From Propionibacteriaceae bacterium (GTDB lineage: Bacteria; Actinomycetota; Actinomycetes; Propionibacteriales; Propionibacteriaceae): 54,660 nucleotides of DNA. The translations under genes and the position numbers were made by a program. Below the pieces are notes generated by a model, which saw only the letters and a list, made by a program, of their open reading frames with translations, did not search any database and was not told where the DNA came from. The DNA lies in assembly GCA_009778725.1 (NCBI GenBank), contig WRFP01000001.1, positions 1 to 54,660 on the forward strand, read 5' to 3'. Positions 879-17,377 of this stretch are shown one piece after another. The stretch's first letter is position 1. Every line of letters begins with the position of its first letter.

Positions 879-1601
879 TTATTCCACATCGTCATCGCGG
901 ACGGCGCTGGGGTCGTCTAGCAGGGTGAGGTCATCTGCGGTGACGAAACCGGTTGACACGGCCCACTCGACTAGGCGGGAGCGGCGGCCTGAGGCGTGTT
1001 GGCGTACTCCGCCGCGCATGCCGTCAACTCCTAGGTTGTCCAGTTTCATACAGATGTTGTCGATTTTCTTTTCGTAGCGTTTGACGGTCCAGCCGATGCG
1101 GTCGGCGGCGTCGGCGTTGGAGGGGACGTGGATCATGCCGAAGCCTTCGCGCCTGAGGGCGGGTTCGGCCAGGGCCACGATGGCGAGGCGCTGGGGCATG
1201 GTCCATCCCACTCCCCCGATCGTTGTGCCGGACTCGACATCGGCGGTTCCCAGGCCTTCTTTCCAGAGGGGGATTTCATTGACCAGGTGGATTTGGTACG
1301 TGCAAGGGCCCGCTGTGAACACCACGTCGACGGAGCCGAACACCAGGGGCAGCCGTGTGGAGGGGCCCAGCCATGCCTGGAGGCTCGTCTTGCGGTCATA
1401 AACGGTGGCTGCCGTCGTGCCACCGATGTTGACCAGCCACCACAGGTCGTACTCGTACACCAAACGCAGGAAGCGGCGGTGGAGGTACGGGTTGGCGTCG
1501 AGGACCATGTCTGCCTCGCGGCCGATGTCGAAAACGTGGCCGGGACTGACCACGTGGGTGCGTCCCTCGAACTCGATGCGAACAGTTGACTCCTCCGCCA
1601 T
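879..1601 (-). CDS. FHA-like N-terminal domain fused to a LuxR/FixJ-type HTH; last gene of the operon
   Basis: ATG at 1601 is preceded by GAGGAGGA. The ORF-track start at 1700 would overlap the kinase gene. The N-terminal part has the GR pair (DIGREADMVL) and NIGGTT, resembling FHA. The C-terminal part, SNADAADRIGWTVKRYEKKIDNICMKLDNLGV, resembles the LuxR HTH signature. Confidence 0.6.
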   Translation of the reverse strand: MAEESTVRIEFEGRTHVVSPGHVFDIGREADMVLDANPYLHRRFLRLVYEYDLWWLVNIGGTTAATVYDRKTSLQAWLGPSTRLPLVFGSVDVVFTAGPCTYQIHLVNEIPLWKEGLGTADVESGTTIGGVGWTMPQRLAIVALAEPALRREGFGMIHVPSNADAADRIGWTVKRYEKKIDNICMKLDNLGVDGMRGGVRQHASGRRSRLVEWAVSTGFVTADDLTLLDDPSAVRDDDVE

Positions 1602-1626
1602 ACGTCCTCCTCTTCTCGTATCAACC

Positions 1627-3327
1627 TCAGGCAACAGCACAATGTTTCGTTGTGTCCGATGGTACCCCGTGACGGACGACCTGCACATCGAGACAGACAT
1701 AACTTTCCTGGTCAGGCCACGGCACGCTCACTGTCGTCTGGTCTGTGATCTTGGCGCTGACATCGGCCGACCCATCGACGGTGTAACGATACTGGTCGCC
1801 TTGCTGAGGGGCTGGATTAACCCAGGTGAACACAGCATTACCAGCAGGATCATGGGTGCCGGTCATATTTGTGACCGCCTGGGGGATGGTCGAATTCACA
1901 ATGGGATTCTGGGGTGTGGCCGTGGTGGGGGTGTCCTCAGGAGCAGGGGGTACGTCAGGTGCACCGCGCAGAACCACGATGAGTACGACTGCGGCGATGG
2001 CGACGATCACGACCGCGAGGGTGACCAGTGCCCATCGGCGTCTCCTGGGTGGCTGAGGGGAAACCGGTTCGGTCGGTGCCGGTTCCGGGGGGGCGGGTTG
2101 TTCCAGCGTCATCGGGCGTACTTGGGTGGGTTCGAGCACGCCACCACCATCCGGATCCGTTGTCGGACGGGCGGCAGGGGCTGTTGGCGCTTTGTCTGCC
2201 TGCCCGGGCACGGAGGAGATGGGCAATGCCGCTTTGGCAGTGGGTGTCCGGTCGTGGACCGCGTTGCGAGCCATGTCAGACGCTTGCGACAATCCCGCGA
2301 GTTGTACCGGGTCTGGGTCCAAGGTGGGGTCGATGGTGTGCTCGACGTGGGGGTCGATCACTGTCAGCGGGCGAAGACTGGTGCCGGCAGTCTCGTCATC
2401 GCCGAACCGGTCATCAATGTCGGCATCTTCCAGGATGTCCATCTGGGTAGCCGGAAGGTGGAGTTCGGACTCGACCTCGCGCAAGGCCATCCCGAAGGCC
2501 TTCATCGACGAATACCGGGCCTGAGGAGACTTGGCCATGGCGGTGGACAGGACCTGGTCCAAGGAGGCCGGGGCGTCAACCCGGCCGAGTGGCTGGTAGG
2601 GGGTATTGCGGATCCGGTCGATCATTACGTGCTGCCGGTTGTCGCCGCCGGGAATCTCGAAGGGAGCCCTGCCTGTCAGCAAAGCGTAAATGGTCGCGGC
2701 CAGGCTCCAGATGTCGGATTGGCGGGTCGGACGAGGGTTCGCGTCGAAGGACTCGGGCGGGCTCCACGGGATCGACATCCCTTCCGCGCCGCCCTTGGCC
2801 GCCTCGACGTCCGTCATCGCGATGCCGAAGTCGCCGAGGACCGGACGCGAGAAACGATCCATCAAGATGTTGGCCGGCTTGACATCCCTGTGCAAAATCC
2901 CTTGTGAATCGGCTACCAGGCCCGGACTGGTGTAGCGATGAGCCGATTCCAGGGCACCGGCCAGTTGGATGCCTATCTTCAGAACATTGGCCAAGGACCA
3001 CTGGGTCTTGCGCAGTCCCTGGGACAAGGCCGCCCCCGGGTAGTACTCCATCACCAAGTACGGACGCCCGTCCATCGCGACCCCGGAGGAAAACACGGTC
3101 ACGATGTTCTGGTGCCCGGACAGACCGGCCATGGCGTCCGCCTCTTTGTTGAGCCGGGCGGCGGCCTGGGTTCCCGCCATGTCAGAGTGCAGGACTTTCA
3201 CCGCCACCTGGCGGCGCGGGGTATCTTGCGAATAGAGATAGACATCGGCGAAACCGCCGTGTCCCAGGTCTCGCAGATAGGAGAAACCGGGAATCTGCGG
3301 AGGCGATTCACGCCGGGCAGAACTCAT
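1627..3327 (-). CDS. Hanks-type Ser/Thr protein kinase: one TM helix and a roughly 110-aa FN3-like ectodomain, no PASTA repeats
   Basis: Motifs seen: GHGGFADVY, VAVKVL, HRDVKPANIL, DFGIA, SPPE. A Pro-rich linker follows, then the TM helix WALVTLAVVIVAIAAVVLIVVL and an extracytoplasmic beta-rich tail. The ATG overlaps the upstream stop (ATGA). Confidence 0.9.
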   Translation of the reverse strand: MSSARRESPPQIPGFSYLRDLGHGGFADVYLYSQDTPRRQVAVKVLHSDMAGTQAAARLNKEADAMAGLSGHQNIVTVFSSGVAMDGRPYLVMEYYPGAALSQGLRKTQWSLANVLKIGIQLAGALESAHRYTSPGLVADSQGILHRDVKPANILMDRFSRPVLGDFGIAMTDVEAAKGGAEGMSIPWSPPESFDANPRPTRQSDIWSLAATIYALLTGRAPFEIPGGDNRQHVMIDRIRNTPYQPLGRVDAPASLDQVLSTAMAKSPQARYSSMKAFGMALREVESELHLPATQMDILEDADIDDRFGDDETAGTSLRPLTVIDPHVEHTIDPTLDPDPVQLAGLSQASDMARNAVHDRTPTAKAALPISSVPGQADKAPTAPAARPTTDPDGGGVLEPTQVRPMTLEQPAPPEPAPTEPVSPQPPRRRRWALVTLAVVIVAIAAVVLIVVLRGAPDVPPAPEDTPTTATPQNPIVNSTIPQAVTNMTGTHDPAGNAVFTWVNPAPQQGDQYRYTVDGSADVSAKITDQTTVSVPWPDQESYVCLDVQVVRHGVPSDTTKHCAVA

Positions 3328-4772
3328 GCCAACTCCTCGATGGAGACCATCAAGTCATGGCTGAGGAAGTAGATGTCCTGCTCCTGGGCGATCTCCTGCT
3401 GCCCGTCGGTCAGGCGGCGGTCGGGCTCACCGGCCCGGCGAAGGATGGTCCCGTTGCGGCCCAGACTGGTCACCAGGACACTCCAGTCCTCCAGGTCGAC
3501 TCTCAGGTGGGTCGCAGACACGTGAGGATCATCGATGGTGATCAGGTTGGGGATGTCCAGGTTGGAGAAACGGGTTGCCTCGGGACGGCGACCGATGACG
3601 AAGGGATGGTCGATCGGCCTCACATCTCCCCCAGGCAGTTTCAGCCGGCCCAGGATCGGGCGCGGAACCTGAGTGGCGTCGACATCCAGGGGCGCGTCGC
3701 ATGCCCGGCAGGTGACTCGCCGGGTCGAGTTGGGGGTGTGGCAGTGCGGACACACCCGTGCCGACACCATGGGACCCAGGACGGGAGGTGGTTGAGGGCC
3801 CGCGGCTACCTGGTCGCCGACCCAGGTGTGGGTGGTCATCTCGTCGTGGTCAGTCGAGTGATCATCGCCGGAACCGGACACCGACATCACTGTCATACCG
3901 TCGTGGTCATCGGCGTCTCCATACGGAAGGTCTGTTGTTGGAATCACCAGTTCGTTGGTCTCCGTATTGGATGGCGGAGCAATGGTCATTTGTGTTTCGG
4001 CATGGACATCGGCCGCGTCGGGTACGGGGGTCTCAGGGACGGGATTTCGAGCCGCAGGGTCCTCAAAGAAGGACCGATACAGCGTGGTGTAGTGGAGGTC
4101 TTGCTCGTCACGCGACTGGACAGGGGTGGACGGCTCGCCTGACGGTGCAGGAACATCTGCACCGAGTTCTACGGAAGCTTTCGCTTCGTCACCTAAAGCC
4201 GACGTGACAACGCCCGACTCAACCAGACTCGGCGCTTCAGCAGTAGGCACAGGCAGGCTTGGAGTATCCGTCACTAAGACACCATTACTTGTCGTACTGG
4301 GCTCAACCCTCTGGACCACTACTGGGGCTGGCGTTGGTTCTGCCTCAAAGAGCACCTCGATGAGACAGACCGGCGCCATGCCATCGTTGAGCACCCAGGA
4401 CGGCTGACCACTGTCCTCGTTGTCGGCCAGGCTGAGCTGACTGGGTGCCAGGATCCTGTCTTCTCTCCAGGTCAGGACATCGGCGCCACTGATCCGTACA
4501 GGTCCTGGAGCCGTCATTGCTCGTACGGACAAGGGGCCACGTACTGCGACATGGAAACCGTCTGATTCGGGTACGGCGATGGCGAAGGCGGGCAAGGAGG
4601 TCAGGTCCGCAGCCGCATCGCCCACCACGGTCTGGAGGAGTTGGGCAAACCCGAGGCCGCCCCGCAGAGCCGCCCACACGGACATCACCGTGTCCCCCGG
4701 GCAATCTGGCGCGAGAACAACACAGCGTGCCCCCGACACGAGGCCGTACCACCGTCCCGTCGCGTACCTCAT
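3324..4772 (-). CDS. FHA domain protein with an internal zinc ribbon and an unassigned N-terminal domain
   Basis: Zinc ribbon: CPHCHTPNSTRRVTCRACDAPL. C-terminal FHA motifs: VIGRRPEA, VSATHLRV, SLGRNGTILRR. ATGA overlaps occur at both ends. Confidence 0.85.
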   Translation of the reverse strand: MRYATGRWYGLVSGARCVVLAPDCPGDTVMSVWAALRGGLGFAQLLQTVVGDAAADLTSLPAFAIAVPESDGFHVAVRGPLSVRAMTAPGPVRISGADVLTWREDRILAPSQLSLADNEDSGQPSWVLNDGMAPVCLIEVLFEAEPTPAPVVVQRVEPSTTSNGVLVTDTPSLPVPTAEAPSLVESGVVTSALGDEAKASVELGADVPAPSGEPSTPVQSRDEQDLHYTTLYRSFFEDPAARNPVPETPVPDAADVHAETQMTIAPPSNTETNELVIPTTDLPYGDADDHDGMTVMSVSGSGDDHSTDHDEMTTHTWVGDQVAAGPQPPPVLGPMVSARVCPHCHTPNSTRRVTCRACDAPLDVDATQVPRPILGRLKLPGGDVRPIDHPFVIGRRPEATRFSNLDIPNLITIDDPHVSATHLRVDLEDWSVLVTSLGRNGTILRRAGEPDRRLTDGQQEIAQEQDIYFLSHDLMVSIEELA

Positions 4773-5581
4773 GGTCTGTCTTTCTCGCCGGAGCGTTCCA
4801 CGTCTTCCAGTCCCATCATATCGTCGAGAGTGGCCTCGCCTGGTTCGTCCACGGAATCTTCCACATCCACGATGACAACCGACACGTTGTCACGCCCGCC
4901 CGCGGCCAGAGCGGCGTCAACCAACTCGTTGACTGCGTCGCCAGCCGGCAGCGGCTGGATCAGGATGCGGGCGATCTCGGCCTCGGTCAGCTCTGAGGTC
5001 AGCCCGTCCGAACAGATCATCCAGCGTTGTGGGCCCGTGACCGGGATCAGCCAATAGTCGGGTCGTTCGATGGTGTGCGCCCCCAACACACGAGTGATGA
5101 CATTGCGCCGGGAGTACGTTCTCGCCGCCTCGGCGTCCAATTCTCCGGCCTCGATCATCTCCTGGGCTTCGGAATGGTCCACCGACACCTGGCTGACCTG
5201 GTCACCGACGACCCGGTAGGTGCGCGAGTCCCCCAGATTGATCACCAACCAGTACGGCCACCCGTCTTGCCTCACCAGGACGATGCCACTGACCGTTGTG
5301 CCGGCCGCTCGCCACAGATGTGAAGCTTCGAGGGAGTCGATAGTCCAGCGGGCCCGGTTCAGGGCATCCCGGACAGCTTCGACACTGGGATCTGAACCCA
5401 GTTTGCCCATCTCGTCGATCAGGATGGCGCTGGCACGGTCACCGGCGTCATGGCCGCCCATGCCATCGGCCACAATGAACACAGGGCGCTCAGCCAAGAT
5501 GGCGTCCTCGTTGAAGGCACGGCGATGGCCGATATTGGTCGCGGATGCGACACTCAGTTTCACATCATCCACCACGGTCAT
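4769..5581 (-). CDS. PP2C-family Ser/Thr phosphatase (soluble, 270 aa)
   Basis: MTVVDDVKLSVASATNIGHRRAFNEDA...VADGMGGHDAGDRAS...GDSR..CSDGL..GGRDNVSVVIVDV. The ATG at 5581 overlaps the stop of the upstream gene (ATGA). I treat the longer ORF-track start at 5962 as a GC-rich extension. Confidence 0.88.
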   Translation of the reverse strand: MTVVDDVKLSVASATNIGHRRAFNEDAILAERPVFIVADGMGGHDAGDRASAILIDEMGKLGSDPSVEAVRDALNRARWTIDSLEASHLWRAAGTTVSGIVLVRQDGWPYWLVINLGDSRTYRVVGDQVSQVSVDHSEAQEMIEAGELDAEAARTYSRRNVITRVLGAHTIERPDYWLIPVTGPQRWMICSDGLTSELTEAEIARILIQPLPAGDAVNELVDAALAAGGRDNVSVVIVDVEDSVDEPGEATLDDMMGLEDVERSGEKDRP

Positions 5582-6156
5582 GATTCTTGGGCTCTCTCGA
5601 CATGGACTCGTCTGCGTCCCAGGATCAGCGCGTCGCCGATCGACACGCTGACAGGCTCTCCGGGGACCAGGCGGACCGGTTGAGCTCCCTTCCGTACAAG
5701 ATCCGTACCATTGGTGGATCCCCGGTCTCGGAACCATAACCCCTGGTCGTCGAGGCCATACTCCGCATGGGTCTTCGACAATGACCGCTCGGGGTCGTCG
5801 ACTGCCGTACACACTACGGATGGGTTCTGGGACTCGGGATGGCGTCCGAGCAGACCATGGCCACTCACGTGGATTCGTTGGCCAGTGTCGAACACCAAAT
5901 CGATGGAAGGCCTGCCCACCGCGGGCCCGGCTGGCCTGGTGGGAGCGACGGGCCCCGACCATGGGGGCAACGACGGTGGTGCCACCACAGGCGAGTCGTC
6001 ATCAGTTGGTCCGTTGTCGAAGAACTCCGGAGTCCTGGTGCCTGGAACATCCCAGATCAGGAAACCACCGGGATTCGAGGCCACGGGGCGCCCACAGGAT
6101 GGACAGGTGACGCCCGATTCCAGCAACTGAGCCCCGCAGTGCGCACACGTTCCCAT
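5578..6156 (-). CDS. Zinc-ribbon plus FHA domain protein
   Basis: N-terminal CAHCGAQLLESGVTCPSCG. C-terminal FHA motifs: LLGRHP, SLSKTHAEY, GSTNGTDLV. Confidence 0.85.
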   Translation of the reverse strand: MGTCAHCGAQLLESGVTCPSCGRPVASNPGGFLIWDVPGTRTPEFFDNGPTDDDSPVVAPPSLPPWSGPVAPTRPAGPAVGRPSIDLVFDTGQRIHVSGHGLLGRHPESQNPSVVCTAVDDPERSLSKTHAEYGLDDQGLWFRDRGSTNGTDLVRKGAQPVRLVPGEPVSVSIGDALILGRRRVHVERAQES

Positions 6157-6158
6157 TT

Positions 6159-9838: not shown

Positions 9839-10806
9839 GGGGCGATCTCCGTCTGGGGAATGGGAACCTCATCAATGACCCGGTCGATAACCGAGGCAGC
9901 CGTGACACCTGCGAACTCCGCCTCCGGATCGAGGATGAGCCGGTGGTCCCACACCTGATGGCGGAGATCTTTCACGTCGTCACAGGTGACGTAGGGCCGC
10001 CCTTGGGATGCTGCCCAGACCTTTGCTGTCCTGGTCATGGCCAGAGCCCCTCGTACTGAGACTCCAATCCGGGTTTGGTCGCTCAGGCGGGTCTGCTCGG
10101 CCACGGTGGCGATATAGGTCAGTACGGCGTCAGCGACATGCACAGTTGTGGCGAGGTCGGCCATTTCCGCGACCTTGTCAGCGGGGATGACCGGGGAAAT
10201 CAGCGAGGACCGGTTCTTCAAGGCCGCCCCCGAGAGGATCTCGACGGTATGAGCCATGTCCGGGTAACCGATGGAGGTCTTCATCAGGAAACGGTCCAAC
10301 TGGGCTTCAGGCAGCCGATAGGTTCCGGCTTGCTCAATCGGGTTCTGGGTCGCGATCACCATGAAGGGCCGGCCCACTTTCCGAGTCACGCCGTCGACCG
10401 TGACCTGGCCTTCCTCCATGACCTCCAGGAGAGCCGACTGGGTCTTGGGCGAGGCGCGGTTGATCTCGTCAGCCAACAGAATGTGGGCAAACACCGGGCC
10501 TGGAAGGAATTCGAAGTCACCTTTGCGCTGGTCGAAGACCGTCACACCCGTGACATCGGTCGGCAGCAGGTCGGGAGTGAACTGGATGCGCTTGCTCGTC
10601 CCGGCGACTGTGACGGCCAGCGCCCGGGCCAATTGGGTCTTGCCGGTCCCCGGGGCGTCTTCCAGGAGAATGTGGCCTTCCGCCAGCATGGCAGCGACCG
10701 CGTAGCGAACTTCACGGTCTTTGCCTAAGACGGCCTTGCCGACACTGGCGACGATCTGGTTGACAGCCTGGGCGAACCACTGAGCTTGATCGGGAGTCAT
10801 GGTCAT
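9835..10806 (-). CDS. MoxR-family AAA+ ATPase
   Basis: Walker A is LLEDAPGTGKTQLARALA. Walker B / sensor region is LLADEINRASPKTQSALLEVMEE..TVDG. VIATQNP is present. The size (323 aa) is typical of MoxR. Confidence 0.92.
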   Translation of the reverse strand: MTMTPDQAQWFAQAVNQIVASVGKAVLGKDREVRYAVAAMLAEGHILLEDAPGTGKTQLARALAVTVAGTSKRIQFTPDLLPTDVTGVTVFDQRKGDFEFLPGPVFAHILLADEINRASPKTQSALLEVMEEGQVTVDGVTRKVGRPFMVIATQNPIEQAGTYRLPEAQLDRFLMKTSIGYPDMAHTVEILSGAALKNRSSLISPVIPADKVAEMADLATTVHVADAVLTYIATVAEQTRLSDQTRIGVSVRGALAMTRTAKVWAASQGRPYVTCDDVKDLRHQVWDHRLILDPEAEFAGVTAASVIDRVIDEVPIPQTEIAP

Positions 10807-10862
10807 GGGTCACGATGTCCTTTCCTGGAGATTTCGGCGAAAAGTCGCCACGAATACCGTTG

Positions 10863-13800
10863 TCATGCGCGGGTACAATCGACAATTTTAGGTGAACTAG
10901 CGTCGCCATGGGCGAACCAGATGGACACGGAATGGGTCTGCAGGTTGACACCTGTTTCCCATCCAACAAGGGCGTACGTTCCCGAGCCCGCATGAACCCA
11001 GCACCCCGGGGGTGTTCCGGTATTGCTGTCACAGCCGGAGGTGTTGTACTTCCACCACTGGGTGGCGTCGGCGGGCATATTGGAGAAAGTAACCGACATG
11101 TTTGTGGGCCCGCTGATGTGATAGGTACAACTGGGAGGTTTCGGACAGGCCGCCGCAGTCGCACTCGCACTGGCCACCGAACTGGTCTGGCCCGCGGAGT
11201 CGACCGCACGTACCTGAATCGAGTGCGATTGCGCACAGGTGCTGCCCACCGACTGGGACCCATTCGAGGCTGCCACGGCTGTCCATCCGCCGTTGTCGAT
11301 GTTAACTTCCAGCTTGGAGATCGCCCTCCCGTTTTCCGCCGGCATGGACCATGACACGGTGACCGCATTGCCATTCTGGGCCGCCTTCGCACCAGGCTGG
11401 TTGGGAGGACCGTACGGACGGCAATTCCCGACACTGGTGGTCGGCCCTTTCTGACTGGTCGATTGAACCGTTGTGACAGCCCACACCTGGATCGTGTAGC
11501 CGGTGCTGCTGTTCTTTAAAGCCGCGGTGCCTGAGGTCGACCCACCGAAGGAACCCGACGTCCCATCGGAAGCTTGCCACTGGTACGACACCTCTGAGGC
11601 CTTCGCGCCATTGAGCGGGGCCGCGCTGAAGGACAGCGCACAACCGCCGTTCTTGTCCGCACTGGTCAAGCCCGACACCGTGCCCGGAGGTACGATCGAC
11701 CGGAACCCGGCAGACTGCGCCGAGACCGCACCTGTCCCGGCTTTGTTGGTGGCAGACACGGTGAAGGTGTACTCCGTCTGGCTGGTGGGCAAGGTCGTCG
11801 TCTGACAGACCTGAGTTCCGCCCGTAGCCGAGACTGTGTAGACATTGCCGGTTGAGGATGTCAGTGTGTAGGTCGAGATCGCTGCCCCGTTGTCCGATGG
11901 TACGCTCCAGCACACCTGTGCGCGGCCCTGGTTGCCGACCGGGTCGAGCCGGGTCCACGTCGGTGCGGAAGGAGTGGCAGGCGGACCAGCCGGGGTCTGT
12001 TCCACAGAGTACGGCGACCACTGGCTGGGATCCGTACAAACGTTAGGCGCCGAGTTGACCGCACAGACCTGGACCTTGTAAGCCGTACCGTTCTTCAGCC
12101 CGGTCCACGAGTACGAGAGCCCTGTCACCCCAGTGACCATCTGCTGACCCGACGGCGGTGCCGGGGAGATGCGCAGGTTGTACGAGGTGATCGGCGACCC
12201 GTGACTGTTGCCCGCCAGCCAACTCAGGCTCACGGATTGGTCACCCCAGTTGATTCCCGGTGTTTTCATCGGGTCCGGCACGGCATCTGGGCGTACCTCC
12301 TGGGACGGCAACGATGGATCCGACACCCCAACCTCGTTCGTCGCCGTGACAGTAAAGGTGTACGTCGTATCGTTCGTCAGTCCATTGAGAACGCAGGTCG
12401 TCCCCGAACATTGTTTGGTGTACCCCGGGACTCCTGTCACCGTGTATCCAGTGATGGCAGCGCCGTGATTGTCCGGCGGGGTCCATTTCAGGGTGGCCTG
12501 CTGGTCGCCGATTTGAACCACACTGATTCCGCTGGGTGCTGCCGGACGTCCTCGCACAGTCAGATAGATGCGGCCCTGAGCCTGGCGATCCGGGTCCGCA
12601 GTCTGGTCCTGGATCGTGTACCGGACCACCATCTGCCCGAGGAAGGAGTCAGCAGGTGTCACGGACACGCCATTGCCATTACATCCCGTACTGACCGTCC
12701 CCTGTCCGGATTCGACGACCGCACCGACCACAGTCAGACTGCTGCCAGGAAAAGGATTGACGTCGTTGGCCGTCACGTTCACACACGTCGCCACACCCTG
12801 GCTGGCTTTCGGGACCTGGTCGTCGACAGCCACGGGCAAGGGCTTGGTCGTTCCCACGACGGTTACCGCAATCGGTGCCTGAGCCGTCGACTGTCCATCC
12901 GTGACCTCGACTGTCACCGTGGCTTTCGTTCCCTTTGCCACGCTGATGTCAGCCGCAACGGTCATGGTCACACTGCTGATCGAAGCGGTGATTCCCTTAA
13001 CATTGGGCGGCTGGGCCACCGAGAATGACAGCTTGGCCGCCGGGTCCGAATCCTTGGCCAAGGCCGCCAGGTCGACAGGCGTCGATTGGCCCGCCTCGAC
13101 GGTGACAGTGGCGTTGCCCATCGAGACCACCGGTGGAGTATGGGCCTGGTCCGACGGCAAAACGGTGACCGGAATCGTGACCACCGCGGTCAGCCCGGTG
13201 TCGTCTTCCAGGCTGGACCCATCGGTCACCTCGACCAGAATGGCCGCCGGCCCGGTGTAGTCGGCAGGGGCATGGAAAGTGACCTGAGTCGCGGAGGGTG
13301 CTTCTGCCGAACCGTTCCAAGCCGAGACCTTCTCGGCCTGCGTCACTTTCGCAGTACGCCCTGGACGCACGAGGATCTGGTCCGACAAAGAAACTGTCAC
13401 CGACTCGCCCTGCTTGACCTGGAGGGCATTCGCCGACGGGTTGTACTGGGGCGGGATGGTATCCACCCCAGGAACAGTGATGAAACCGTGTCCGACAAGG
13501 TTGTCCGGGTCGGTCAGCGTGTAGTCGATGATCTGGAGATCCGAGGTGATCGGAACCGTGACAATGCCATCGTTGACGTGGACTGTCGGGTCTGCCACCG
13601 CCACCGTGTCCTGGCTCACGTCTCCATCGGGATCGCGGTCGTTGTCCCGTACGGACACGTCGACGGACGTGTGCATCAGGGCGTCGGTCAACGAAACCGT
13701 GTCGTCACCGAGAATCGGGGCTTTCAGGGCCACATCCGGGCTGACCGACACCGTGATGATCCCCGTGGACTGCAACCCGGCGCCGTTGGTGATCGCGTAG

Positions 13801-16800
13801 GTTCCCCAGTACGAACCGGACTGGCCGGGAGCAGTGATGACCACATTGTTGCCCTGTGTCGTGGCGGTGAAACTGTCCGATGTCGCAGAGTCGGCCACCA
13901 GCGAACAGCATGTATTGCCATGCTGGTCAAAGTCATTGGCCGTCACGGGCACGATCACCTGCCGCCCTGGTCTGGTCTCCACCGTGTCTGTCACAGCGAT
14001 GGGTGGTTCGTTCTGGTCGCTGGCTGGTGCGATGCCGACGAGGACCTGGCCGGTGGCCTCCAACCCCTTGCGATCGCGGACGAGATAGGTGAACGAGTCG
14101 CTGCCGGTCGTGGTGTCCCCCGGAGCGTAGACGAAGCCAGTCGAACTGACGGCTGTGATCAGCCCCTGCGAAGGAGCCGATCCGATACCCACCAGGGAGA
14201 CGAAGTCACCGTTGGGATCGATGCCGTCAAGCGGGATCGTGACTGCCACCGGCTGGCCGGCCAACGTGCGTACCTCGACCTGTTTGGGCTTGGGAGCGTC
14301 ATTTCCCGTGTCATCTCCTACAACATGAATTGTCAATCGTCCAGTGTCGGGTTCCGCCGAGCCCGTCTGGTTGGCAACCTTGTACAAAGCCGTGTAGGTC
14401 CCGGGATTCTGGCGGGCGTGGACCCGCACGACGTTGCCTGAGGTGAAGACCAGAGCTTCGGAGTCGGGATTGGGAGTCTGGGTGAGGTCGGGCAGCAGCT
14501 TCAGGGGAATCCCATTGGGCTGGGTGTCATTGGCCAGGACATCGACGGTGGCGATGTCGCCCACCCGAACAGTCACCTGATCGTCCGCGGCCACCGGCGA
14601 CATGATGCGGTCGGGAGCCGGTACGGGGACCACGGTGACGCGGCTGGTGGCGTACCCCTTGCCATTGGAGATCGTGTAATCGAAACTGACCGGCGAGGTG
14701 AATTCCTTCTCGGGGGTGATCTTCACCCGCTCGTGGTCGATGACCGACACGACGAACGGCAGATCGGCAGTCGCATCCACCGAGGTCACGACCAGGGGAT
14801 ATCCCATCGGATTGACGTCATTGTCCAAGACGTTGACATAGGTCTCCTGTCCGGCGGAGACCAGAACCGTGTCTGGAACGGCCACGGGAAGCGCGTCCTG
14901 ATCGGGTGCTGGCAGGACGAGAATGCGGATCCAACTCTCCTGATTGGTCGAGGGCCCGTCCGTCACCGTGTACGTCAGGTAGACCGATCCCGCCTCATTG
15001 CAGACCGCCGTGATGGTCCCCGCGATAGTGTCGGCCGCCACCGAACACCTCGGGTCCGAGCTGACATTCGTCAACTGCAGGGCGTCGCCGTCGGGATCGG
15101 TGTCATTGTCCAGCGGGTGAATGACGATCTGCGAACCGACAGTGCCAGAGACCAGGTCGGGGGTCGGATCCGGGGGCCGGTTGCCCGGTGGGAGAACATT
15201 GACCGTGATGTCGCCATCGGCCACGGCCTGTCCGTCGGAGACCTGGATGTGAATCGTCTTCACGCCGGTGGAAATCCCGCCGTCCTGGAATGCCAGAGAA
15301 CCGTCTTCGAGGGCCTGGACGGAGTCCTCGGGTGAACAGGAAGCCCCGACCAGAAAGATGGTGTCACCATCGGGGTCGCGCCAGTTGGACAAGACGTTGT
15401 ACGACACGGTGTGACCACTGGTCACAGTCAACGATGTGGCCCGGATCGCGGCAGGCGGTGAGTTGACAGAATCGGGATGGACGTCCACCTCGACATGGGC
15501 ATCCGACGTGCCGCCGCGCCCGTCAGAGACCTGATAGGTGAACCCGAGTGTTCCCGACGCGGTGGCGGGAACGTTCATCTGGAAGACGGATTGGGAATAC
15601 ACCAGGGACAGTTGTGTGCCCGCCGGGGCATCGCCGACTAGGGAAGCCGTCAGCAGGTCGCCGTCCTCGTCAGTGTCATTCTCCACCACGGGCAATAGCA
15701 CCGACGACCCGGCCCGGGCACCGAACTGGTCGTCTACCGCCTGGGGCGGATGGTTCTCAGCAGTACGATCGGGCTTGATCGATTCATCGATCTCCTCTTT
15801 GGCCTGGGTGTCCTGATTGCCCTTGTCAGCATCCATCATGGAGTTCCAGTTGTCCACTTTGACCACCCGGTCGGCCACCGACCACACCGCACCCGATGTC
15901 AGTTCGTTGAGGAGGATGTGCCCCCAGTTGACGCGGAAGCGCAGTTCGCTGGTGGCGGTGATTTTGTCGATGGTGGTGGTCAGATCGTTGCTGTCGCCGG
16001 GGCAATCGCGTAAGAACGCCCCCGTGCCAGACCAGACCGCGTAGGTACATCCGTCAAGTTGGACCGGAGGGCTGGCCACCCCGACTCCCCCCTTGCTGCC
16101 CGCCTGGGTGACTGTAGCTTGACTGCCGTTCAGGGGTTGGGAAACCAGAGCGGTGGGCGTCTCATAGACCACGGAACCCGCTTCCGCTGAGACCATCTGG
16201 AGTGAGACGGACGTCGCGTCGGTCGCGCCGTCATCGGCCAGTAGACCCACTGTCTTCCCGGAGGCCAGGTGGATCGTGGAATCCTTCTGGCTGAGCAGGA
16301 CCGGTTGACTGCCGACAACCGTCATGGCATAGGTCCCATCCGGCACCAAACCGGCCATAGCCTTGTCCGTCACGACAGGATCGCCTCCGGCTGAGCCCAC
16401 GCGTACTGTTTTTTCTATCCCTGCGACGGGGTCGACGACATAAGCCGTCCCATCTTGGCCCACGGCCATCGCCGCGTTTTTGGGCAGATCGGTCACGGCA
16501 GCGGGCATGGCTTGCGATGTTGGGTCGAAGCTTTGGACCACAGCCGCTGGGAGAAGCCAGAAGGAGCCTTTGTCCGGAATCAATATCCCGACCATTCCAC
16601 CACCAAGCTCAATGCCGGTTCCCCCGCCCAGCATCATGGTGTGACCCAGGGTCAGGTTGGCCGGATTGAGAGGAGCGACGGAACCGTCGTCGGGGTCCAC
16701 GACGAAGACATTCGCGTTTTCTTGGAGAACATCGAAATGGGACATGTCCGTGACGTAGGCAATTGAGTCGAGTTGCTGGGCGGAATAGTTGAAACGGCCC

Positions 16801-16997
16801 ACGGCCTGGACTTTTTGGCTCGTCACCCACACACCGGAATCATTCAAGTGCAACTGCGCGACCGGAAACCCCTGACTGGCGACAGCCATTGCTGTGAAGC
16901 CAGTTGCCAAAACGGTGACAAATCCCACAGAGAGAATCTTTCGCCATCTGCGTGATAGCAGGCCCATGACAGTACCTCTAGTTCCCCAGTCCGCCAT
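10863..16997 (-). CDS. Giant N-terminally anchored surface protein (2,044 aa) with cadherin/Ig-like modules and FN3 domains
   Basis: Single uninterrupted ORF. The basic N-terminus plus TM helix is RRWRKILSVGFVTVLATGFTAMAVA. An unassigned ectodomain of about 340 aa comes next, then about 11 modules carrying ND-x-D/N-P-x-G motifs, 5 FN3-like domains and a Cys-containing C-terminal cap. There is no LPXTG signal. The ATG at 16967 (MGLLSRRW, RBS GAGG 7 nt upstream) may be the true start. Confidence 0.9.
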   Translation of the reverse strand: MADWGTRGTVMGLLSRRWRKILSVGFVTVLATGFTAMAVASQGFPVAQLHLNDSGVWVTSQKVQAVGRFNYSAQQLDSIAYVTDMSHFDVLQENANVFVVDPDDGSVAPLNPANLTLGHTMMLGGGTGIELGGGMVGILIPDKGSFWLLPAAVVQSFDPTSQAMPAAVTDLPKNAAMAVGQDGTAYVVDPVAGIEKTVRVGSAGGDPVVTDKAMAGLVPDGTYAMTVVGSQPVLLSQKDSTIHLASGKTVGLLADDGATDATSVSLQMVSAEAGSVVYETPTALVSQPLNGSQATVTQAGSKGGVGVASPPVQLDGCTYAVWSGTGAFLRDCPGDSNDLTTTIDKITATSELRFRVNWGHILLNELTSGAVWSVADRVVKVDNWNSMMDADKGNQDTQAKEEIDESIKPDRTAENHPPQAVDDQFGARAGSSVLLPVVENDTDEDGDLLTASLVGDAPAGTQLSLVYSQSVFQMNVPATASGTLGFTYQVSDGRGGTSDAHVEVDVHPDSVNSPPAAIRATSLTVTSGHTVSYNVLSNWRDPDGDTIFLVGASCSPEDSVQALEDGSLAFQDGGISTGVKTIHIQVSDGQAVADGDITVNVLPPGNRPPDPTPDLVSGTVGSQIVIHPLDNDTDPDGDALQLTNVSSDPRCSVAADTIAGTITAVCNEAGSVYLTYTVTDGPSTNQESWIRILVLPAPDQDALPVAVPDTVLVSAGQETYVNVLDNDVNPMGYPLVVTSVDATADLPFVVSVIDHERVKITPEKEFTSPVSFDYTISNGKGYATSRVTVVPVPAPDRIMSPVAADDQVTVRVGDIATVDVLANDTQPNGIPLKLLPDLTQTPNPDSEALVFTSGNVVRVHARQNPGTYTALYKVANQTGSAEPDTGRLTIHVVGDDTGNDAPKPKQVEVRTLAGQPVAVTIPLDGIDPNGDFVSLVGIGSAPSQGLITAVSSTGFVYAPGDTTTGSDSFTYLVRDRKGLEATGQVLVGIAPASDQNEPPIAVTDTVETRPGRQVIVPVTANDFDQHGNTCCSLVADSATSDSFTATTQGNNVVITAPGQSGSYWGTYAITNGAGLQSTGIITVSVSPDVALKAPILGDDTVSLTDALMHTSVDVSVRDNDRDPDGDVSQDTVAVADPTVHVNDGIVTVPITSDLQIIDYTLTDPDNLVGHGFITVPGVDTIPPQYNPSANALQVKQGESVTVSLSDQILVRPGRTAKVTQAEKVSAWNGSAEAPSATQVTFHAPADYTGPAAILVEVTDGSSLEDDTGLTAVVTIPVTVLPSDQAHTPPVVSMGNATVTVEAGQSTPVDLAALAKDSDPAAKLSFSVAQPPNVKGITASISSVTMTVAADISVAKGTKATVTVEVTDGQSTAQAPIAVTVVGTTKPLPVAVDDQVPKASQGVATCVNVTANDVNPFPGSSLTVVGAVVESGQGTVSTGCNGNGVSVTPADSFLGQMVVRYTIQDQTADPDRQAQGRIYLTVRGRPAAPSGISVVQIGDQQATLKWTPPDNHGAAITGYTVTGVPGYTKQCSGTTCVLNGLTNDTTYTFTVTATNEVGVSDPSLPSQEVRPDAVPDPMKTPGINWGDQSVSLSWLAGNSHGSPITSYNLRISPAPPSGQQMVTGVTGLSYSWTGLKNGTAYKVQVCAVNSAPNVCTDPSQWSPYSVEQTPAGPPATPSAPTWTRLDPVGNQGRAQVCWSVPSDNGAAISTYTLTSSTGNVYTVSATGGTQVCQTTTLPTSQTEYTFTVSATNKAGTGAVSAQSAGFRSIVPPGTVSGLTSADKNGGCALSFSAAPLNGAKASEVSYQWQASDGTSGSFGGSTSGTAALKNSSTGYTIQVWAVTTVQSTSQKGPTTSVGNCRPYGPPNQPGAKAAQNGNAVTVSWSMPAENGRAISKLEVNIDNGGWTAVAASNGSQSVGSTCAQSHSIQVRAVDSAGQTSSVASASATAAACPKPPSCTYHISGPTNMSVTFSNMPADATQWWKYNTSGCDSNTGTPPGCWVHAGSGTYALVGWETGVNLQTHSVSIWFAHGDASSPKIVDCTRA
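11148..12548 (-). repeat. Five tandem FN3-like domains within the giant protein (coding repeats)
   Basis: Residues ~1484-1950. Repeated pattern: P..P..v.v......a.l.W..P.dnG.aIt.Y.v.......C......C...GL.N.t.Y.F.V.A.N..G.S. Confidence 0.7.
12558..15752 (-). repeat. About 11 tandem ~97-aa cadherin/Ig-like modules within the giant protein (coding repeats)
   Basis: Recurrent motifs and their residue positions: VENDTDEDGD (439), WRDPDGD (539), LDNDTDPDGD (629), LDNDVNPMGY (724), LANDTQPNG (821), DGIDPNGD (924), ANDFDQHGN (1020), DNDRDPDGD (1118), ANDVNPFPG (1410). Spacing is 92-101 aa. Confidence 0.7.
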
Positions 16998-17376: not shown

Positions 17377-17377
17377 G

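What the first reader, a model, noticed from the sequence alone, without database searches (positions are those of the whole stretch)
879..16997. Nine-gene coupled operon: giant cadherin/FN3 surface protein + MoxR-DUF58-transglutaminase-like triad + full pThr signalling module ending in an FHA-HTH protein
All nine minus-strand genes are packed tightly. The junctions are ATGA overlaps at 9835, 5578, 4769 and 3324, a 1-nt overlap at 8453, a 2-nt gap at 6157, and gaps of only 25 and 56 nt elsewhere. That packing argues for one transcription and translation unit. Three kinds of component are combined. (a) A 2,044-aa ectoprotein anchored only by an N-terminal TM helix. (b) A MoxR AAA+ ATPase, a membrane DUF58 (vWA-like) protein and a polytopic transglutaminase-like protein; this triad is widespread but functionally unsolved. 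(c) Two zinc-ribbon FHA proteins, a soluble PP2C, a receptor Ser/Thr kinase with an FN3-like ectodomain, and an FHA-like/LuxR-HTH protein. The architecture reads as an extracellular sensor or scaffold, an ATP-driven remodelling unit, a reversible pThr relay and a transcriptional output. It differs from the classical FhaA-FhaB-PstP-RodA-PbpA-PknAB cell-division cluster. I cannot tell from the sequence alone whether this exact combination has been described. I know of no assigned function for it. Possible roles, as inference only, are envelope or matrix assembly control or surface surveillance such as phage or contact sensing.
Basis: partly seen in the sequence, partly recalled or inferred. Interest (0 to 1): 0.85.

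Follow-up and report, generated by a model that had tools for sequence, protein, structure and literature searches.

The report
Esr/PFNA-type surface-sensing phosphothreonine gene cluster
The nine tightly packed genes are real, but they are a Propionibacteriaceae copy of an already described actinobacterial surface-sensing pathway (the "PFNA" cluster of bifidobacteria, the "Esr" epibiont-sensing pathway of Schaalia), with a few new details such as a conserved FHA-plus-DNA-binding-like last gene and a transglutaminase-like protein that has no catalytic cysteine.

Summary
Nine minus-strand genes (879-16997) have exactly the junctions reported, and eight of the nine domain calls hold; the LuxR-HTH call and the FN3-like kinase ectodomain have weak or no support.

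The combination is not random. With the last gene as probe, 80 metagenome loci and five genomes or MAGs show the same set:
- kinase directly upstream in 50/55;
- PP2C in 39/41;
- MoxR/DUF58/TGase within 10 kb in 16/20.

It is not undescribed. It matches, gene for gene, the PFNA cluster of Bifidobacterium (2018-2025 papers; co-transcription shown in B. longum). It also matches the Esr "epibiont sensing and response" pathway of Schaalia odontolytica (bioRxiv, Sept 2026). That pathway comprises an Ig-repeat surface protein with a beta-propeller, MoxR, vWA, transglutaminase, Ser/Thr kinase, PP2C and an FHA output protein, and is often next to Esx/T7SS genes. Relatives of this window carry an FHA-FtsK T7SS ATPase and WXG100 right after the cluster. 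The window itself ends in a transposase fragment.

New details:
- The last gene is a large, conserved family with an FHA fold and a weakly LuxR-like helical domain. It is a candidate for the unexplained transcriptional output.
- The TGase-like protein has Asp in place of the catalytic Cys in all 35 orthologs.
- The EsrG-like protein carries a conserved DHDGxT motif.

Verdict: a new member of a known kind.

The parts
10863..16997 (-). EsrA/FN3-type giant surface protein (2,044 aa). It has an N-terminal signal/TM helix (aa 21-39), a beta-propeller (aa ~55-385), about 11 Big_9/cadherin-like Ig domains (aa ~415-1480), FN3 repeats (aa ~1487-1930) and a Cys-containing C-terminal domain. There is no LPXTG motif.
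   Evidence: ORF and translation. Pfam Big_9 9e-75, Cadherin_5, fn3. TM helix. Same size and FN3 position as B. longum FN3 (1,994 aa, FN3 at 1494-1671; PMC10688814).
15843..16835 (-). N-terminal beta-propeller domain of the giant protein (aa ~55-385), the presumed ligand-sensing head.
   Evidence: No Pfam hit. AlphaFold2 model with a 5-sequence alignment: pLDDT about 78-92 across the domain, about 28 strands. All top Foldseek PDB hits are beta-propellers (1l0q YVTN, NirN/NirF, BamB, AztD; E 2e-9 to 2e-6, TM about 0.5-0.65). The domain is conserved, including Cys317/Cys332, in a Bifidobacteriaceae MAG, in Cellulosimicrobium, and in stand-alone LRV_2-TM proteins.
9835..10806 (-). MoxR-family AAA+ ATPase (323 aa), with Walker A GTGKT and Walker B DE present.
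   Evidence: Pfam AAA_3 1.5e-61, AAA_lid_2, and bpMoxR 35.5 bits (cut-off 27). 61-70% identity to orthologs in other families.
8453..9838 (-). DUF58 (vWA-like) protein with two TM helices (461 aa).
   Evidence: Pfam DUF58 2.4e-12. TM helices at aa 83-129. Conserved position next to MoxR.
6159..8453 (-). EsrD/Tgm-type polytopic transglutaminase-like protein (764 aa). It has about 7 N-terminal TM helices, an extracytoplasmic Transglut_core domain, one TM helix, and a cytoplasmic DUF4129. Catalytic Cys is replaced by Asp489; His534 is kept; Phe550 replaces the triad Asp.
   Evidence: Pfam TgpA_N, Transglut_core, DUF4129. Alignment to P. aeruginosa TgpA, PDB 6G49. GD[DE]EQ[YF]A in 35/35 orthologs. 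The only cysteines are at 99 and 190, in TM helices.
5578..6156 (-). Zn-ribbon / disordered linker / canonical FHA protein (192 aa). In Micrococcales relatives the same position holds an RDD-membrane-domain/FHA protein.
   Evidence: Pfam FHA 2.7e-4, Zn_Ribbon_1 1.9e-4. GR, SxxH and NG motifs read from the sequence. RDD+FHA in relatives.
4769..5581 (-). Soluble PP2C phosphatase (270 aa) with the metal-binding motifs intact (DGMGG, GDSR, SDG, DN).
   Evidence: Pfam PP2C_2 and PP2C. Motifs read. Orthologs 42-50% identical. Found upstream of the last gene in 39/41 loci.
3324..4772 (-). EsrG-like output/adaptor protein (482 aa). It has a conserved N-terminal domain (aa ~1-145), a Thr/Ser/Pro-rich disordered region (aa ~146-340) with DHDGMT (aa 289-294) and DHDEMT (308-313) motifs, a CxxC...CxxC zinc ribbon (aa 341-358), and a canonical FHA domain (aa ~385-482).
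   Evidence: Pfam FHA. Ortholog sequences and alignment. D[HD]DGxT in 28/41 orthologs. Composition. The architecture matches EsrG1 as described in PMC13622651.
1627..3327 (-). Receptor Ser/Thr kinase (566 aa). It has an active-looking kinase domain (VAVK, HRD, DFG), a disordered linker, a TM helix (aa 434-452), and an ectodomain of about 114 aa from no known family.
   Evidence: Pfam Pkinase 8.5e-33. TM helix. Ectodomain without hits. Directly upstream of the last-gene family in 50/55 loci.
879..1601 (-). Conserved 240-aa protein. It has a divergent FHA domain (aa 1-110) and a five-helix C-terminal domain (aa 135-228) with weak LuxR/GerE-type HTH similarity. It is the candidate transcriptional output.
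   Evidence: No Pfam or PDB sequence hit. AF2 model pLDDT 88. Foldseek finds FHA domains (6ccd 1.8e-6, GarA, OdhI, EmbR). hhalign against E. coli UvrY/SdiA/NarL/RcsB HTH is colinear over 73 columns, P about 0.009; 2/200 shuffles reach the score. The family has 920 clusters at 50% identity and is 46-51% identical across families.
16998..17457 (-). 460-nt non-coding region upstream of the giant gene. It is the only sizeable gap and therefore the likely promoter region of the unit (inference).
   Evidence: Sequence read. No sigma-70-type consensus match was found, which is uninformative for Actinomycetota.

Best explanation
This is a Propionibacteriaceae member of the actinobacterial Esr/PFNA class: a cell-surface threat or contact sensor wired to a phosphothreonine relay.

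**Proposed mechanism.**
1. The giant protein is exported. It displays an N-terminal beta-propeller on a stalk of about 15 Ig/FN3 domains and is the ligand sensor. The anatomy is shown here; the sensing role is shown only in Schaalia.
2. The giant protein is held at the surface, and coupled to the membrane, by the polytopic TGase-like protein together with the two-TM DUF58 (vWA-like) protein and the cytoplasmic MoxR ATPase. Retention by the TGase-like protein is shown in Schaalia. Here it cannot use thiol chemistry, so I infer non-covalent binding or scaffolding, with MoxR/vWA acting as an ATP-driven remodelling pair.
3. Ligand engagement activates the single-pass Ser/Thr kinase. The kinase phosphorylates threonine(s) in the disordered region of the EsrG-like protein. 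This is shown in Schaalia (T152). Here I infer the conserved DHDGxT motif as a candidate site.
4. The PP2C phosphatase resets the signal.
5. The phosphothreonine is read by FHA domains: the EsrG-like protein's own FHA, the Zn-ribbon-FHA protein, and the last gene's divergent FHA.
6. The output is transcriptional. I propose it runs through the helical, LuxR-like C-terminal domain of the last gene (inferred). In relatives there is probably also direct control of the adjacent Esx/T7SS ATPase, which itself carries N-terminal FHA domains.
For: - **Domain content and tight coupling:**
- **N-terminal beta-propeller plus Ig repeats, no LPXTG:**. This is the architecture given for EsrA1.
- **MoxR of the bpMoxR type:**
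- **EsrG-like architecture** (N-domain, IDR, FHA, here with a zinc ribbon; the preprint lists zinc-finger variants as prominent).
- **Same nine genes in the same order** in a Propionibacteriaceae MAG, Brachybacterium, a Microbacteriaceae isolate and Xylanimonas, and permuted in Nakamurella.
- **Statistics over 80 metagenome loci:**
- **An FHA-FtsK/SpoIIIE T7SS ATPase, WXG100 and T7SS_signal proteins** directly after the cluster in relatives. This matches the reported Esr-Esx linkage (40% of 3,502 pathways).
- **Taxonomy:** the preprint finds Esr prevalent in Actinomycetales and Propionibacteriales. The window's nearest relative is a Propionibacteriaceae MAG.
- **Operon status of the PFNA equivalent in B. 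longum:**
- **FHA fold of the last gene and its invariant adjacency to the kinase:**
Against: - No sequence of the S. odontolytica Esr proteins or the B. longum PFNA proteins could be retrieved. Membership therefore rests on architecture, gene order, taxonomy and the published descriptions, not on direct alignment.
- The N-terminal domain of the EsrG-like protein shows no profile similarity to PP2C, whereas EsrG1 is described as having a pseudophosphatase domain.
- The TGase-like protein lacks the catalytic Cys. This contradicts the covalent-anchoring step hypothesised for EsrD.
- Esx linkage cannot be seen in the window itself, which ends 878 nt after the last gene in a transposase fragment.
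- The HTH assignment of the last gene is weak (hhalign probability 2-5%, empirical P about 0.01). There is no Pfam or PDB sequence hit.
- The Esr work is a single preprint.
Confidence: 0.78

Rival explanations
1. Adhesin biogenesis and quality control. The MoxR/DUF58/TGase-like triad is a chaperone machine that folds, inserts or retains the 2,044-aa adhesin. The kinase, phosphatase and FHA proteins merely tune that assembly (for example by phosphorylating MoxR). There is no external threat-sensing role.
For: - MoxR/vWA pairs are generally chaperone/co-chaperone pairs (PMC7159879).
- In B. longum, Pkb2 phosphorylates the MoxR ATPase, and FN3 is reported as an adhesin.
- Loss of the TGase-like protein releases EsrA1 into the supernatant.
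- The cysteine-less TGase-like domain fits a binding or scaffold role.
Against: - In Schaalia, deleting esrA1 abolishes a genome-wide transcriptional and proteomic response and EsrG1 phosphorylation. That is a signalling phenotype, not a biogenesis phenotype.
- The strict conservation of an FHA/HTH-like protein and the Esx linkage are not explained by a pure assembly role.
Confidence: 0.12
2. PFNA reading: the cluster senses host immune signals. The FN3 domains of the giant protein bind cytokines such as TNF-alpha and the kinase relays this, as proposed for gut bifidobacteria.
For: The gene content is the same as the PFNA cluster, and the giant protein has the same size and FN3 position as B. 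longum FN3. A fragment of that protein bound TNF-alpha in vitro.
Against: - The same cluster occurs in Brachybacterium alimentarium, Xylanimonas, Isoptericola, Nakamurella, Microbacteriaceae and many metagenome contigs. By prior knowledge, several of these genera are not restricted to vertebrate hosts.
- It is therefore not Bifidobacterium-specific.
- The most variable and distal element is the propeller, not the FN3 repeats.
Confidence: 0.04
3. Phage or other invader conflict system of the MoxR-vWA 'ternary' type described by Kaur, Burroughs, Iyer and Aravind. Sensing would lead to an effector or abortive response rather than to gene regulation.
For: The MoxR matches the bpMoxR profile of the MoxR-vWA-beta-propeller ternary systems. 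A beta-propeller, kinase and FHA domains are present, and the preprint itself draws this analogy.
Against: - No toxin or effector domain is fused to the vWA/DUF58 protein or encoded in the cluster.
- The preprint states that its clusters were not detected in that study.
- The sensor is extracellular, which suits surface-attached threats better than intracellular phage sensing.
Confidence: 0.05
4. Chance adjacency of unrelated genes.
For: None beyond the lack of transcript data for this organism.
Against: Identical order in five genomes or MAGs from four families, plus the counts over 80 loci. Four 4-nt start/stop overlaps.
Confidence: 0.01

Closest known systems
Esr (epibiont sensing and response) pathway of Schaalia odontolytica F0309, Esr1/Esr2 (Wang et al., bioRxiv 2026, PMC13622651)
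   Same: - A secreted filamentous Ig-repeat protein with an N-terminal beta-propeller and no LPXTG.
- MoxR, a vWA-type protein and a transglutaminase-like membrane protein.
- A Ser/Thr kinase and a PP2C.
- An output protein with an N-terminal domain, a disordered Thr-bearing region and a C-terminal FHA.
- Linkage to Esx/T7SS genes in relatives.
- Occurrence in Propionibacteriales.
   Different: - No direct sequence comparison was possible.
- The TGase-like protein here has Asp in place of the catalytic Cys.
- The EsrG-like protein carries a zinc ribbon, and its N-domain shows no PP2C similarity by profile comparison.
- There are two extra conserved genes: a Zn-ribbon-FHA (RDD-FHA in relatives), and an FHA plus helical-domain protein after the kinase. 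The preprint text mentions neither gene and contains no occurrence of 'helix-turn-helix' or 'DNA-binding'.
- The Esx neighbourhood is not visible in the window.
PFNA cluster/operon of Bifidobacterium (pkb2-fn3-aaa-atp-duf58-tgm-prpC-hyp-fha; Danilenko group, PMC8430577, PMC6803598, PMC10688814)
   Same: - All five core genes and the three accessory genes have counterparts here.
- The giant protein has nearly the same length and FN3 placement.
- The genes are unidirectional and tightly packed.
   Different: - Gene order: in PFNA the kinase comes first, here it is eighth. The PFNA-like order (kinase first, then the giant, MoxR, DUF58 and TGase genes) with the g9-family gene inserted after the kinase is seen in Nakamurella; the giant gene directly follows the g9-family gene in 9/54 loci.
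- PFNA is described as Bifidobacterium-specific and host-cytokine-directed. The cluster is in fact spread over many Actinomycetes.
- The Esr preprint does not cite PFNA, so the equivalence is my inference from architecture.
MoxR-vWA-centred ternary conflict systems, beta-propeller subtype (Kaur et al., eLife 2020, PMC7159879)
   Same: A MoxR (bpMoxR profile match), a vWA-like partner and a beta-propeller sensor, with kinase and FHA signalling domains in the neighbourhood.
   Different: - The vWA partner is a membrane DUF58 without fused effectors.
- The propeller is the head of an extracellular giant protein.
- No toxin or effector domains are present.
PknH-EmbR (M. tuberculosis): a Ser/Thr kinase controlling an FHA-containing transcription factor
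   Same: A receptor Ser/Thr kinase encoded next to a protein that combines an FHA domain with a DNA-binding-type domain. The EmbR FHA is among the structural matches of the last gene (2ff4).
   Different: - EmbR is wHTH-BTAD-FHA with the FHA at the C-terminus.
- The protein here is FHA at the N-terminus followed by a LuxR-like four-helix unit with two loop insertions.
- There is no sequence similarity outside the FHA fold.

Membership tests
Esr pathway (PMC13622651) | EsrA: a Sec-exported filamentous protein of repeated Ig-like domains with an N-terminal beta-propeller and no LPXTG. | tested here: met
   Signal/TM helix at aa 21-39. Big_9/cadherin/fn3 repeats. Propeller model and Foldseek hits. 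The C-terminus has no LPXTG.
Esr pathway (PMC13622651) | A MoxR AAA+ ATPase and a vWA-type protein encoded together. | tested here: met
   AAA_3 1.5e-61 and DUF58 2.4e-12, overlapping by ATGA. That DUF58 belongs to the vWA-like superfamily is from Pfam clan knowledge and was not re-tested.
Esr pathway (PMC13622651) | EsrD: a transglutaminase-domain membrane protein. | tested here: met
   TgpA_N 2.2e-21 and Transglut_core 6e-16. About 8 TM helices.
Esr pathway (PMC13622651) | EsrD acts as a catalytic transglutaminase that covalently links EsrA (the authors' hypothesis). This requires the Cys-His-Asp triad. | tested here: not met
   The Cys404 equivalent is Asp489 and the Asp464 equivalent is Phe550. 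GD[DE]EQ[YF]A in 35/35 orthologs. No Cys in the ectodomain.
Esr pathway (PMC13622651) | EsrE Ser/Thr kinase and EsrF PP2C phosphatase in the cluster. | tested here: met
   Pkinase 8.5e-33 and PP2C_2 5e-7. Catalytic motifs read.
Esr pathway (PMC13622651) | EsrG: a C-terminal FHA domain preceded by a long disordered region that carries the phospho-threonine. | tested here: met
   FHA at aa 392-446. 200-aa region with 67% P/S/T/A/E/D/G/Q and 22 Thr. Phosphorylation itself is not testable here.
Esr pathway (PMC13622651) | EsrG N-terminal pseudophosphatase domain. | tested here: inconclusive
   A conserved N-domain of about 145 aa exists. It has no Pfam hit, and hhalign against the cluster's PP2C gives probability 0.2%.
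Esr pathway (PMC13622651) | Frequent adjacency to Esx/T7SS genes. | tested here: inconclusive
   The window ends in a transposase fragment 878 nt past the cluster. Relatives have an EssC-like ATPase directly downstream in 21/54 loci and within 10 kb in 13/20. The closest MAG has it convergently oriented.
Esr pathway (PMC13622651) | Sequence homology to the S. odontolytica F0309 EsrA-G proteins. | not testable with these tools
   The preprint's supplements are not held.
PFNA cluster of Bifidobacterium | [quoted passage not shown] | tested here: met
   All five domain types are present. Definition taken.
PFNA cluster of Bifidobacterium | Fixed gene order with pkb2 first. | tested here: not met
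   The kinase is the eighth gene here. The PFNA-like order (kinase first, then the giant, MoxR, DUF58 and TGase genes) with the g9-family gene inserted after the kinase is seen in Nakamurella L005; the giant gene directly follows the g9-family gene in 9/54 loci.
PFNA cluster of Bifidobacterium | An FN3 protein of about 2,000 aa with FN3 domains near residues 1,490-1,670. | tested here: met
   2,044 aa with fn3 from 1487, against 1,994 aa with FN3 at 1494-1671.
PFNA cluster of Bifidobacterium | Restricted to the genus Bifidobacterium ('species-specific'). | tested here: not met
   The same cluster occurs in Propionibacteriaceae, Dermabacteraceae, Microbacteriaceae, Promicromonosporaceae and Nakamurellaceae.
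MoxR-vWA ternary conflict systems (PMC7159879) | A vWA component carrying variable C-terminal effector domains, plus a third component (VMAP, iSTAND, FtsH or beta-propeller). | tested here: not met
   bpMoxR profile hit and propeller are present. However, DUF58 has no effector domains.
FhaA-FhaB-PstP-RodA-PbpA-PknA/B division cluster | RodA (FtsW/SEDS) and PbpA genes between the phosphatase and the kinases. | tested here: not met
   None of the nine products has a SEDS or transpeptidase domain.
LuxR/GerE-type HTH (for the last gene) | A significant match to the GerE/LuxR_C family profile. | tested here: not met
   - No Pfam hit even at E<=10 for 17 members.
- No PDB sequence hit.
- Only a weak profile-profile signal: score 18.6, P about 0.009, 2/200 shuffles reach it.
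- The two hhalign gaps overlap the two long loops of the AF2 model: one coincides almost exactly (aa 150-161 against loop 151-161), the other largely (aa 195-206 against loop 190-203). The topology is therefore compatible.
FHA domain (for the last gene) | An FHA beta-sandwich fold with the pThr-binding Gly-Arg, Ser-x-x-His and Asn-Gly residues. | tested here: inconclusive
   The fold criterion is met. G27-R28, H41 and N58/G60 are invariant in 37 sequences. The canonical Ser three residues before His is Pro38, which is variable. N37 is invariant instead.

The most novel reading that the evidence does not exclude
The 240-aa last gene defines a large family (920 clusters at 50% identity) with no Pfam family or descriptive annotation. 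It consists of a divergent FHA domain fused to a LuxR-like DNA-binding domain and is translationally coupled to the Esr/PFNA kinase. On this reading it is the missing link that converts phosphorylation of the EsrG-type protein into transcriptional reprogramming, a step the Esr authors state is unknown. In the same clade the 'transglutaminase' would be an obligate pseudoenzyme (Cys to Asp in every ortholog). The sensor would then be held by non-covalent capture rather than cross-linking. The bifidobacterial 'cytokine-sensing' PFNA operon would be the same pathway as the epibiont-sensing Esr.
Probability: 0.3. Interest if true: 0.7.

Novelty: new member of a known kind. Interest (0 to 1): 0.45.

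Why it matters
The cluster itself is no longer a mystery, and knowing that saves effort. It belongs to a pathway that lets Actinomycetes detect organisms attached to their surface and switch on defences, including the Esx/T7SS.

This copy and its relatives add three testable leads on questions the Esr preprint leaves open:
- A candidate DNA-binding reader of the phospho-signal (the FHA/HTH-like last gene).
- A conserved DHDGxT motif as a candidate phospho-acceptor and FHA ligand.
- Evidence that the transglutaminase-like anchor cannot work by thiol catalysis in this clade.

It also suggests that two separate literatures, PFNA in probiotic bifidobacteria and Esr in oral Schaalia, describe one system. 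That would change how the bifidobacterial 'cytokine receptor' claims are read.

Tried and rejected
- **Pfam on the last gene, the giant N-terminus, the EsrG-like N-domain and the kinase ectodomain:** no hits.
- **Profile search of the last gene's C-terminal domain against PDB sequences:** only chance hits.
- **Foldseek of the last-gene model against viral structures, to expose the C-terminal domain:** FHA and noise only.
- **hhalign of the EsrG-like N-domain against PP2C:** nothing.
- **Widening the propeller alignment with a profile search:** only 2 hits, a wasted search.
- **Harvesting actinobacterial LuxR-type HTH domains from the roughly 1 Mb of fetched loci to build a richer profile:** none found.
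- **The listing of cluster members on ten divergent family members to learn their taxonomy:** all unnamed metagenome proteins.
- **Looking up the window's own contig to see past the left end:** the ENA contig also stops at the transposase.
- **Preprint supplements:** not held.
- **Promoter and terminator scan:** uninformative.
- **tRNA and Rfam scans of the window:** empty.
- **Rejected readings:** the classical division cluster (no RodA/PbpA) and chance adjacency.

Full report
**1. The observation**

The window holds nine consecutive minus-strand ORFs between 879 and 16997. I read every junction from the sequence:
- Giant to MoxR: 56-nt gap.
- MoxR/DUF58: ATGA overlap.
- DUF58/TGase: 1-nt overlap.
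- TGase to Zn-FHA: 2-nt gap.
- Three further ATGA overlaps at 5578, 4769 and 3324.
- Kinase to last gene: 25 nt, containing GAGGAGG.

The last gene starts at 1601 rather than at the longest possible start of 1700. Thirty-six homologs begin at the equivalent position.

- Giant protein: Big_9/Cadherin_5/fn3.
- AAA_3 MoxR, which also matches bpMoxR.
- DUF58.
- TgpA_N + Transglut_core + DUF4129.
- Zn-ribbon + FHA.
- PP2C.
- FHA in a 482-aa protein.
- Pkinase.

The last gene has no Pfam match.

A hydrophobicity scan gives one TM helix in the giant, two in DUF58, about eight in the TGase-like protein and one in the kinase. Promoter-like and terminator-like matches inside the unit are at the level of shuffled sequence. 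That says nothing either way about a single transcript.

**2. Organism and conservation**

The only close genomic relative in the species-level genome collection is a Propionibacteriaceae MAG, WREX01000001. It has all nine genes in the same order. Amino-acid identities to the window are:

| Gene | Identity |
|---|---|
| Last gene | 95% |
| MoxR | 93% |
| Giant, TGase-like, PP2C | 85-86% |
| Kinase, DUF58 | 81% |
| EsrG-like | 66% |
| Zn-FHA | 59% |

The last gene defines a family with more than 247 close homologs, about 50% identical across these groups:
- Propionibacteriaceae
- Brachybacterium
- Microbacteriaceae
- Isoptericola
- Xylanimonas
- Myceligenerans
- Nakamurella
- a Bifidobacteriaceae MAG

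An exhaustive profile search finds 920 clusters at 50% identity, 314 of them at E<=1e-30.

Neighbourhoods of family members show the identical gene order in Brachybacterium alimentarium, a Microbacteriaceae isolate and Xylanimonas ulmi. Nakamurella has a permuted order: PP2C, FHA, kinase, last gene, giant, MoxR, DUF58, TGase.

A metagenome scan with the family profile found 437 relatives. In the 80 best loci:
- The kinase lies directly upstream in 50/55 loci with enough sequence.
- PP2C lies upstream in 39/41.
- The EsrG-like FHA protein lies upstream in 37/41.
- At least two of MoxR/DUF58/TGase lie within 10 kb in 16/20.

The unit is co-conserved.

**3. It is already described, twice**

A text search found two bodies of work.

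*PFNA cluster of Bifidobacterium.*
- Its genes are pkb2, fn3, aaa-atp (MoxR), duf58 and tgm, plus prpC, a hypothetical protein and fha.
- In B. longum GT15 it is co-transcribed, with an extra start site before prpC (PMC8430577).
- The B. longum FN3 protein is 1,994 aa with FN3 domains at 1494-1671 (PMC10688814).
- The giant here is 2,044 aa with fn3 starting at 1487.

*Esr pathway of Schaalia odontolytica.* A September 2026 preprint describes it (PMC13622651).
- EsrA1 is a Sec-exported protein with 14 Ig-like repeats and an N-terminal beta-propeller, and has no LPXTG.
- The cluster also encodes MoxR, a vWA protein, the transglutaminase EsrD, the kinase EsrE, the phosphatase EsrF, and EsrG (pseudophosphatase domain, disordered region, FHA).
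- Deleting esrA1 abolishes the transcriptional and proteomic response to a Saccharibacteria epibiont.
- Deleting esrD1 releases EsrA1 into the supernatant.
- Thr152 in the disordered region of EsrG1 is phosphorylated on infection, and T152A phenocopies the esrA1 deletion.
- The authors found 3,502 Esr pathways, prevalent in Actinomycetales and Propionibacteriales, with 40% next to esx genes.
- The preprint does not mention PFNA, bifidobacteria, helix-turn-helix or DNA-binding.

**4. Membership tests done here**

*Beta-propeller of the giant protein.*
- Residues 1-410 have no Pfam hit.
- An AlphaFold2 model gives a confident all-beta domain of about 28 strands at residues 55-385.
- All top PDB matches are beta-propellers.
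- The alignment behind the model has only five sequences, but the domain's pLDDT is about 78-92.

*Esx linkage.*
- In Brachybacterium, Microbacteriaceae and Xylanimonas the cluster is followed directly by an FHA/YscD-FtsK/SpoIIIE ATPase, WXG100 and T7SS_signal proteins.
- In the closest MAG the ATPase and a protein with a weak, sub-threshold T7SS_signal match (LXG-like) are convergent, immediately downstream.
- In the 80 loci the ATPase is directly downstream in 21/54.
- The window itself cannot be judged. Positions 394-792 on the plus strand encode only the C-terminal quarter of a Mutator/IS256-family transposase.
- The identical ENA contig stops at the same place.

*EsrG-like protein.*
- It has a conserved N-domain of about 145 aa, a 200-residue disordered segment, a CxxC...CxxC zinc ribbon and a canonical FHA.
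- The preprint says zinc-finger variants of EsrG are prominent.
- The N-domain has no detectable PP2C similarity, so the pseudophosphatase feature is untested at the fold level.

I could not obtain the Schaalia or B. longum sequences. Membership therefore rests on architecture, order, linkage and taxonomy.

**5. New details**

*(a) The last gene.*
- The AF2 model (pLDDT 88, 37-sequence alignment) has an 11-strand N-terminal domain and five C-terminal helices.
- Foldseek places the N-domain firmly among FHA domains: Rv1747 FHA-1, GarA, OdhI, FhaA, EmbR.
- Gly27-Arg28, His41 and Asn58/Gly60 are invariant. The canonical Ser is absent.
- The C-terminal domain has no sequence-level match.
- Against the real LuxR-type HTH domains of E. 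coli UvrY, SdiA, NarL and RcsB, hhalign gives a colinear 73-column alignment.
  - The score is 18.6 and P is about 0.009.
  - Column shuffles give 9.9 +/- 2.1, and 2 of 200 reach the real score.
- Its two gaps (aa 150-161 and 195-206) overlap the two long loops of the model (151-161 and 190-203). The first coincides almost exactly; the second extends about three residues into the following helix.
- The gene is almost always directly after the kinase. The Esr authors state that how EsrG phosphorylation changes transcription is unknown. It is therefore a reasonable candidate for that step.

*(b) The TGase-like protein.*
- Alignment to P. aeruginosa TgpA (PDB 6G49) places His448 and Asp464 on His534 and Phe550.
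- The residue before the aligned block, Cys404, falls on Asp489.
- The motif GD[DE]EQ[YF]A is present in all 35 orthologs in the fetched loci.
- The protein's only cysteines are in TM helices. The Xylanimonas ortholog has none at all.
- Thiol-dependent cross-linking is therefore excluded in this clade.

*(c) A short motif, D[HD]DGxT.*
- It lies in the disordered region just before the FHA domain.
- It is found in 28 of 41 EsrG-like orthologs, and twice in the window protein.

**6. Mechanism and rivals**

The best-supported reading is the Esr model, adapted as set out in the Best explanation section.

| Step | Status |
|---|---|
| Anatomy, conservation, Esx linkage in relatives | Shown here |
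| Sensing by the giant protein | Shown only in Schaalia |
| Retention by the TGase-like protein | Shown only in Schaalia |
| Thr phosphorylation of EsrG | Shown only in Schaalia |
| Non-covalent retention | Inferred |
| DHDGxT as the phospho-site | Inferred |
| Last gene as DNA-binding output | Inferred |

Rivals:
- **Pure adhesin-biogenesis role.** It does not explain the signalling phenotypes.
- **PFNA host-cytokine reading.** It does not fit the wide taxonomic spread of the cluster in genera that, by prior knowledge, are not restricted to vertebrate hosts.
- **Aravind-type effector conflict system.** No effector domains are present.
- **Chance adjacency.** It is refuted by the conservation data.

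**7. Verdict**

This is a new member of a known kind. Interest is moderate, and it rests on the three leads in section 5 and on the PFNA-Esr unification.

Noticed in passing
window 394-792 (+): A C-terminal fragment (profile positions 280-373 of 379) of a Mutator/IS256-family transposase, preceded by stop codons. The window, and an identical 29-kb ENA contig, both end here. In the closest MAG the same position holds a convergent T7SS ATPase gene.
   Followed up: partly
window 6159-8453 (-), residues 487-550: The transglutaminase-like core has Asp489 where TgpA has the catalytic Cys404, and Phe550 where it has Asp464. The motif GD[DE]EQ[YF]A is invariant in 35 orthologs, and the ectodomain has no cysteine.
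   Followed up: yes
window 3324-4772 (-), residues 289-294 and 308-313; loci L009-L088: A conserved short motif, D[HD]DGxT, lies in the disordered region just before the FHA domain of EsrG-like proteins (28 of 41 orthologs). It may be a phospho-acceptor or FHA ligand.
   Followed up: partly
window ~31000-50000: G+C drops from about 63% to 54-57%. This stretch encodes glycosyltransferases (families 1 and 2), UDP-GlcNAc 2-epimerase, DUF7657/DUF7654 proteins and, just beyond it at 52018-53220, a Wzt-type ABC ATPase. It looks like a cell-wall polysaccharide cluster, possibly acquired horizontally. In Schaalia the Esr regulon includes cell-wall polysaccharide genes, but no link was tested here.
   Followed up: no
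proteins P0123, P0124 (metagenome): The propeller domain of the giant protein, including its two conserved cysteines, also occurs in stand-alone proteins of about 500 aa. In those it follows an LRV_2 repeat domain, a proline-rich linker and a TM helix.
   Followed up: no
window 5578-6156 (-) versus L002 3824-5341, L003 4849-5937, L004 4524-6119: The fifth gene is a soluble zinc-ribbon-FHA protein here and in the closest MAG. In Micrococcales relatives it is an RDD-membrane-domain-FHA protein. The FHA is kept while the N-terminal module is swapped.
   Followed up: partly
L001 14123-18544 (-), L002 10771-15234, L003 10756-15273, L004 11018-15484: The T7SS ATPases next to these actinobacterial clusters carry N-terminal FHA/YscD-like domains. 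This architecture is usually associated with Firmicutes EssC rather than with mycobacterial EccC.
   Followed up: no
window 17458-17907 (-) and 18168-19148 (+): Upstream of the cluster lie a 149-aa ORF with one TM helix and no family match, and a divergently oriented CAAX/Rce1-like membrane protease. Whether either belongs to the system is unknown.
   Followed up: no
window 21285-22637 (-) and 53274-54620 (-), 28300-30498 (-): There are two phosphoglucomutase/phosphomannomutase-family paralogs and a GlmS-type amidotransferase. These are amino-sugar precursor genes near the polysaccharide cluster.
   Followed up: no
whole window: No tRNA gene was found, and no Rfam family reached its gathering score.
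   Followed up: yes
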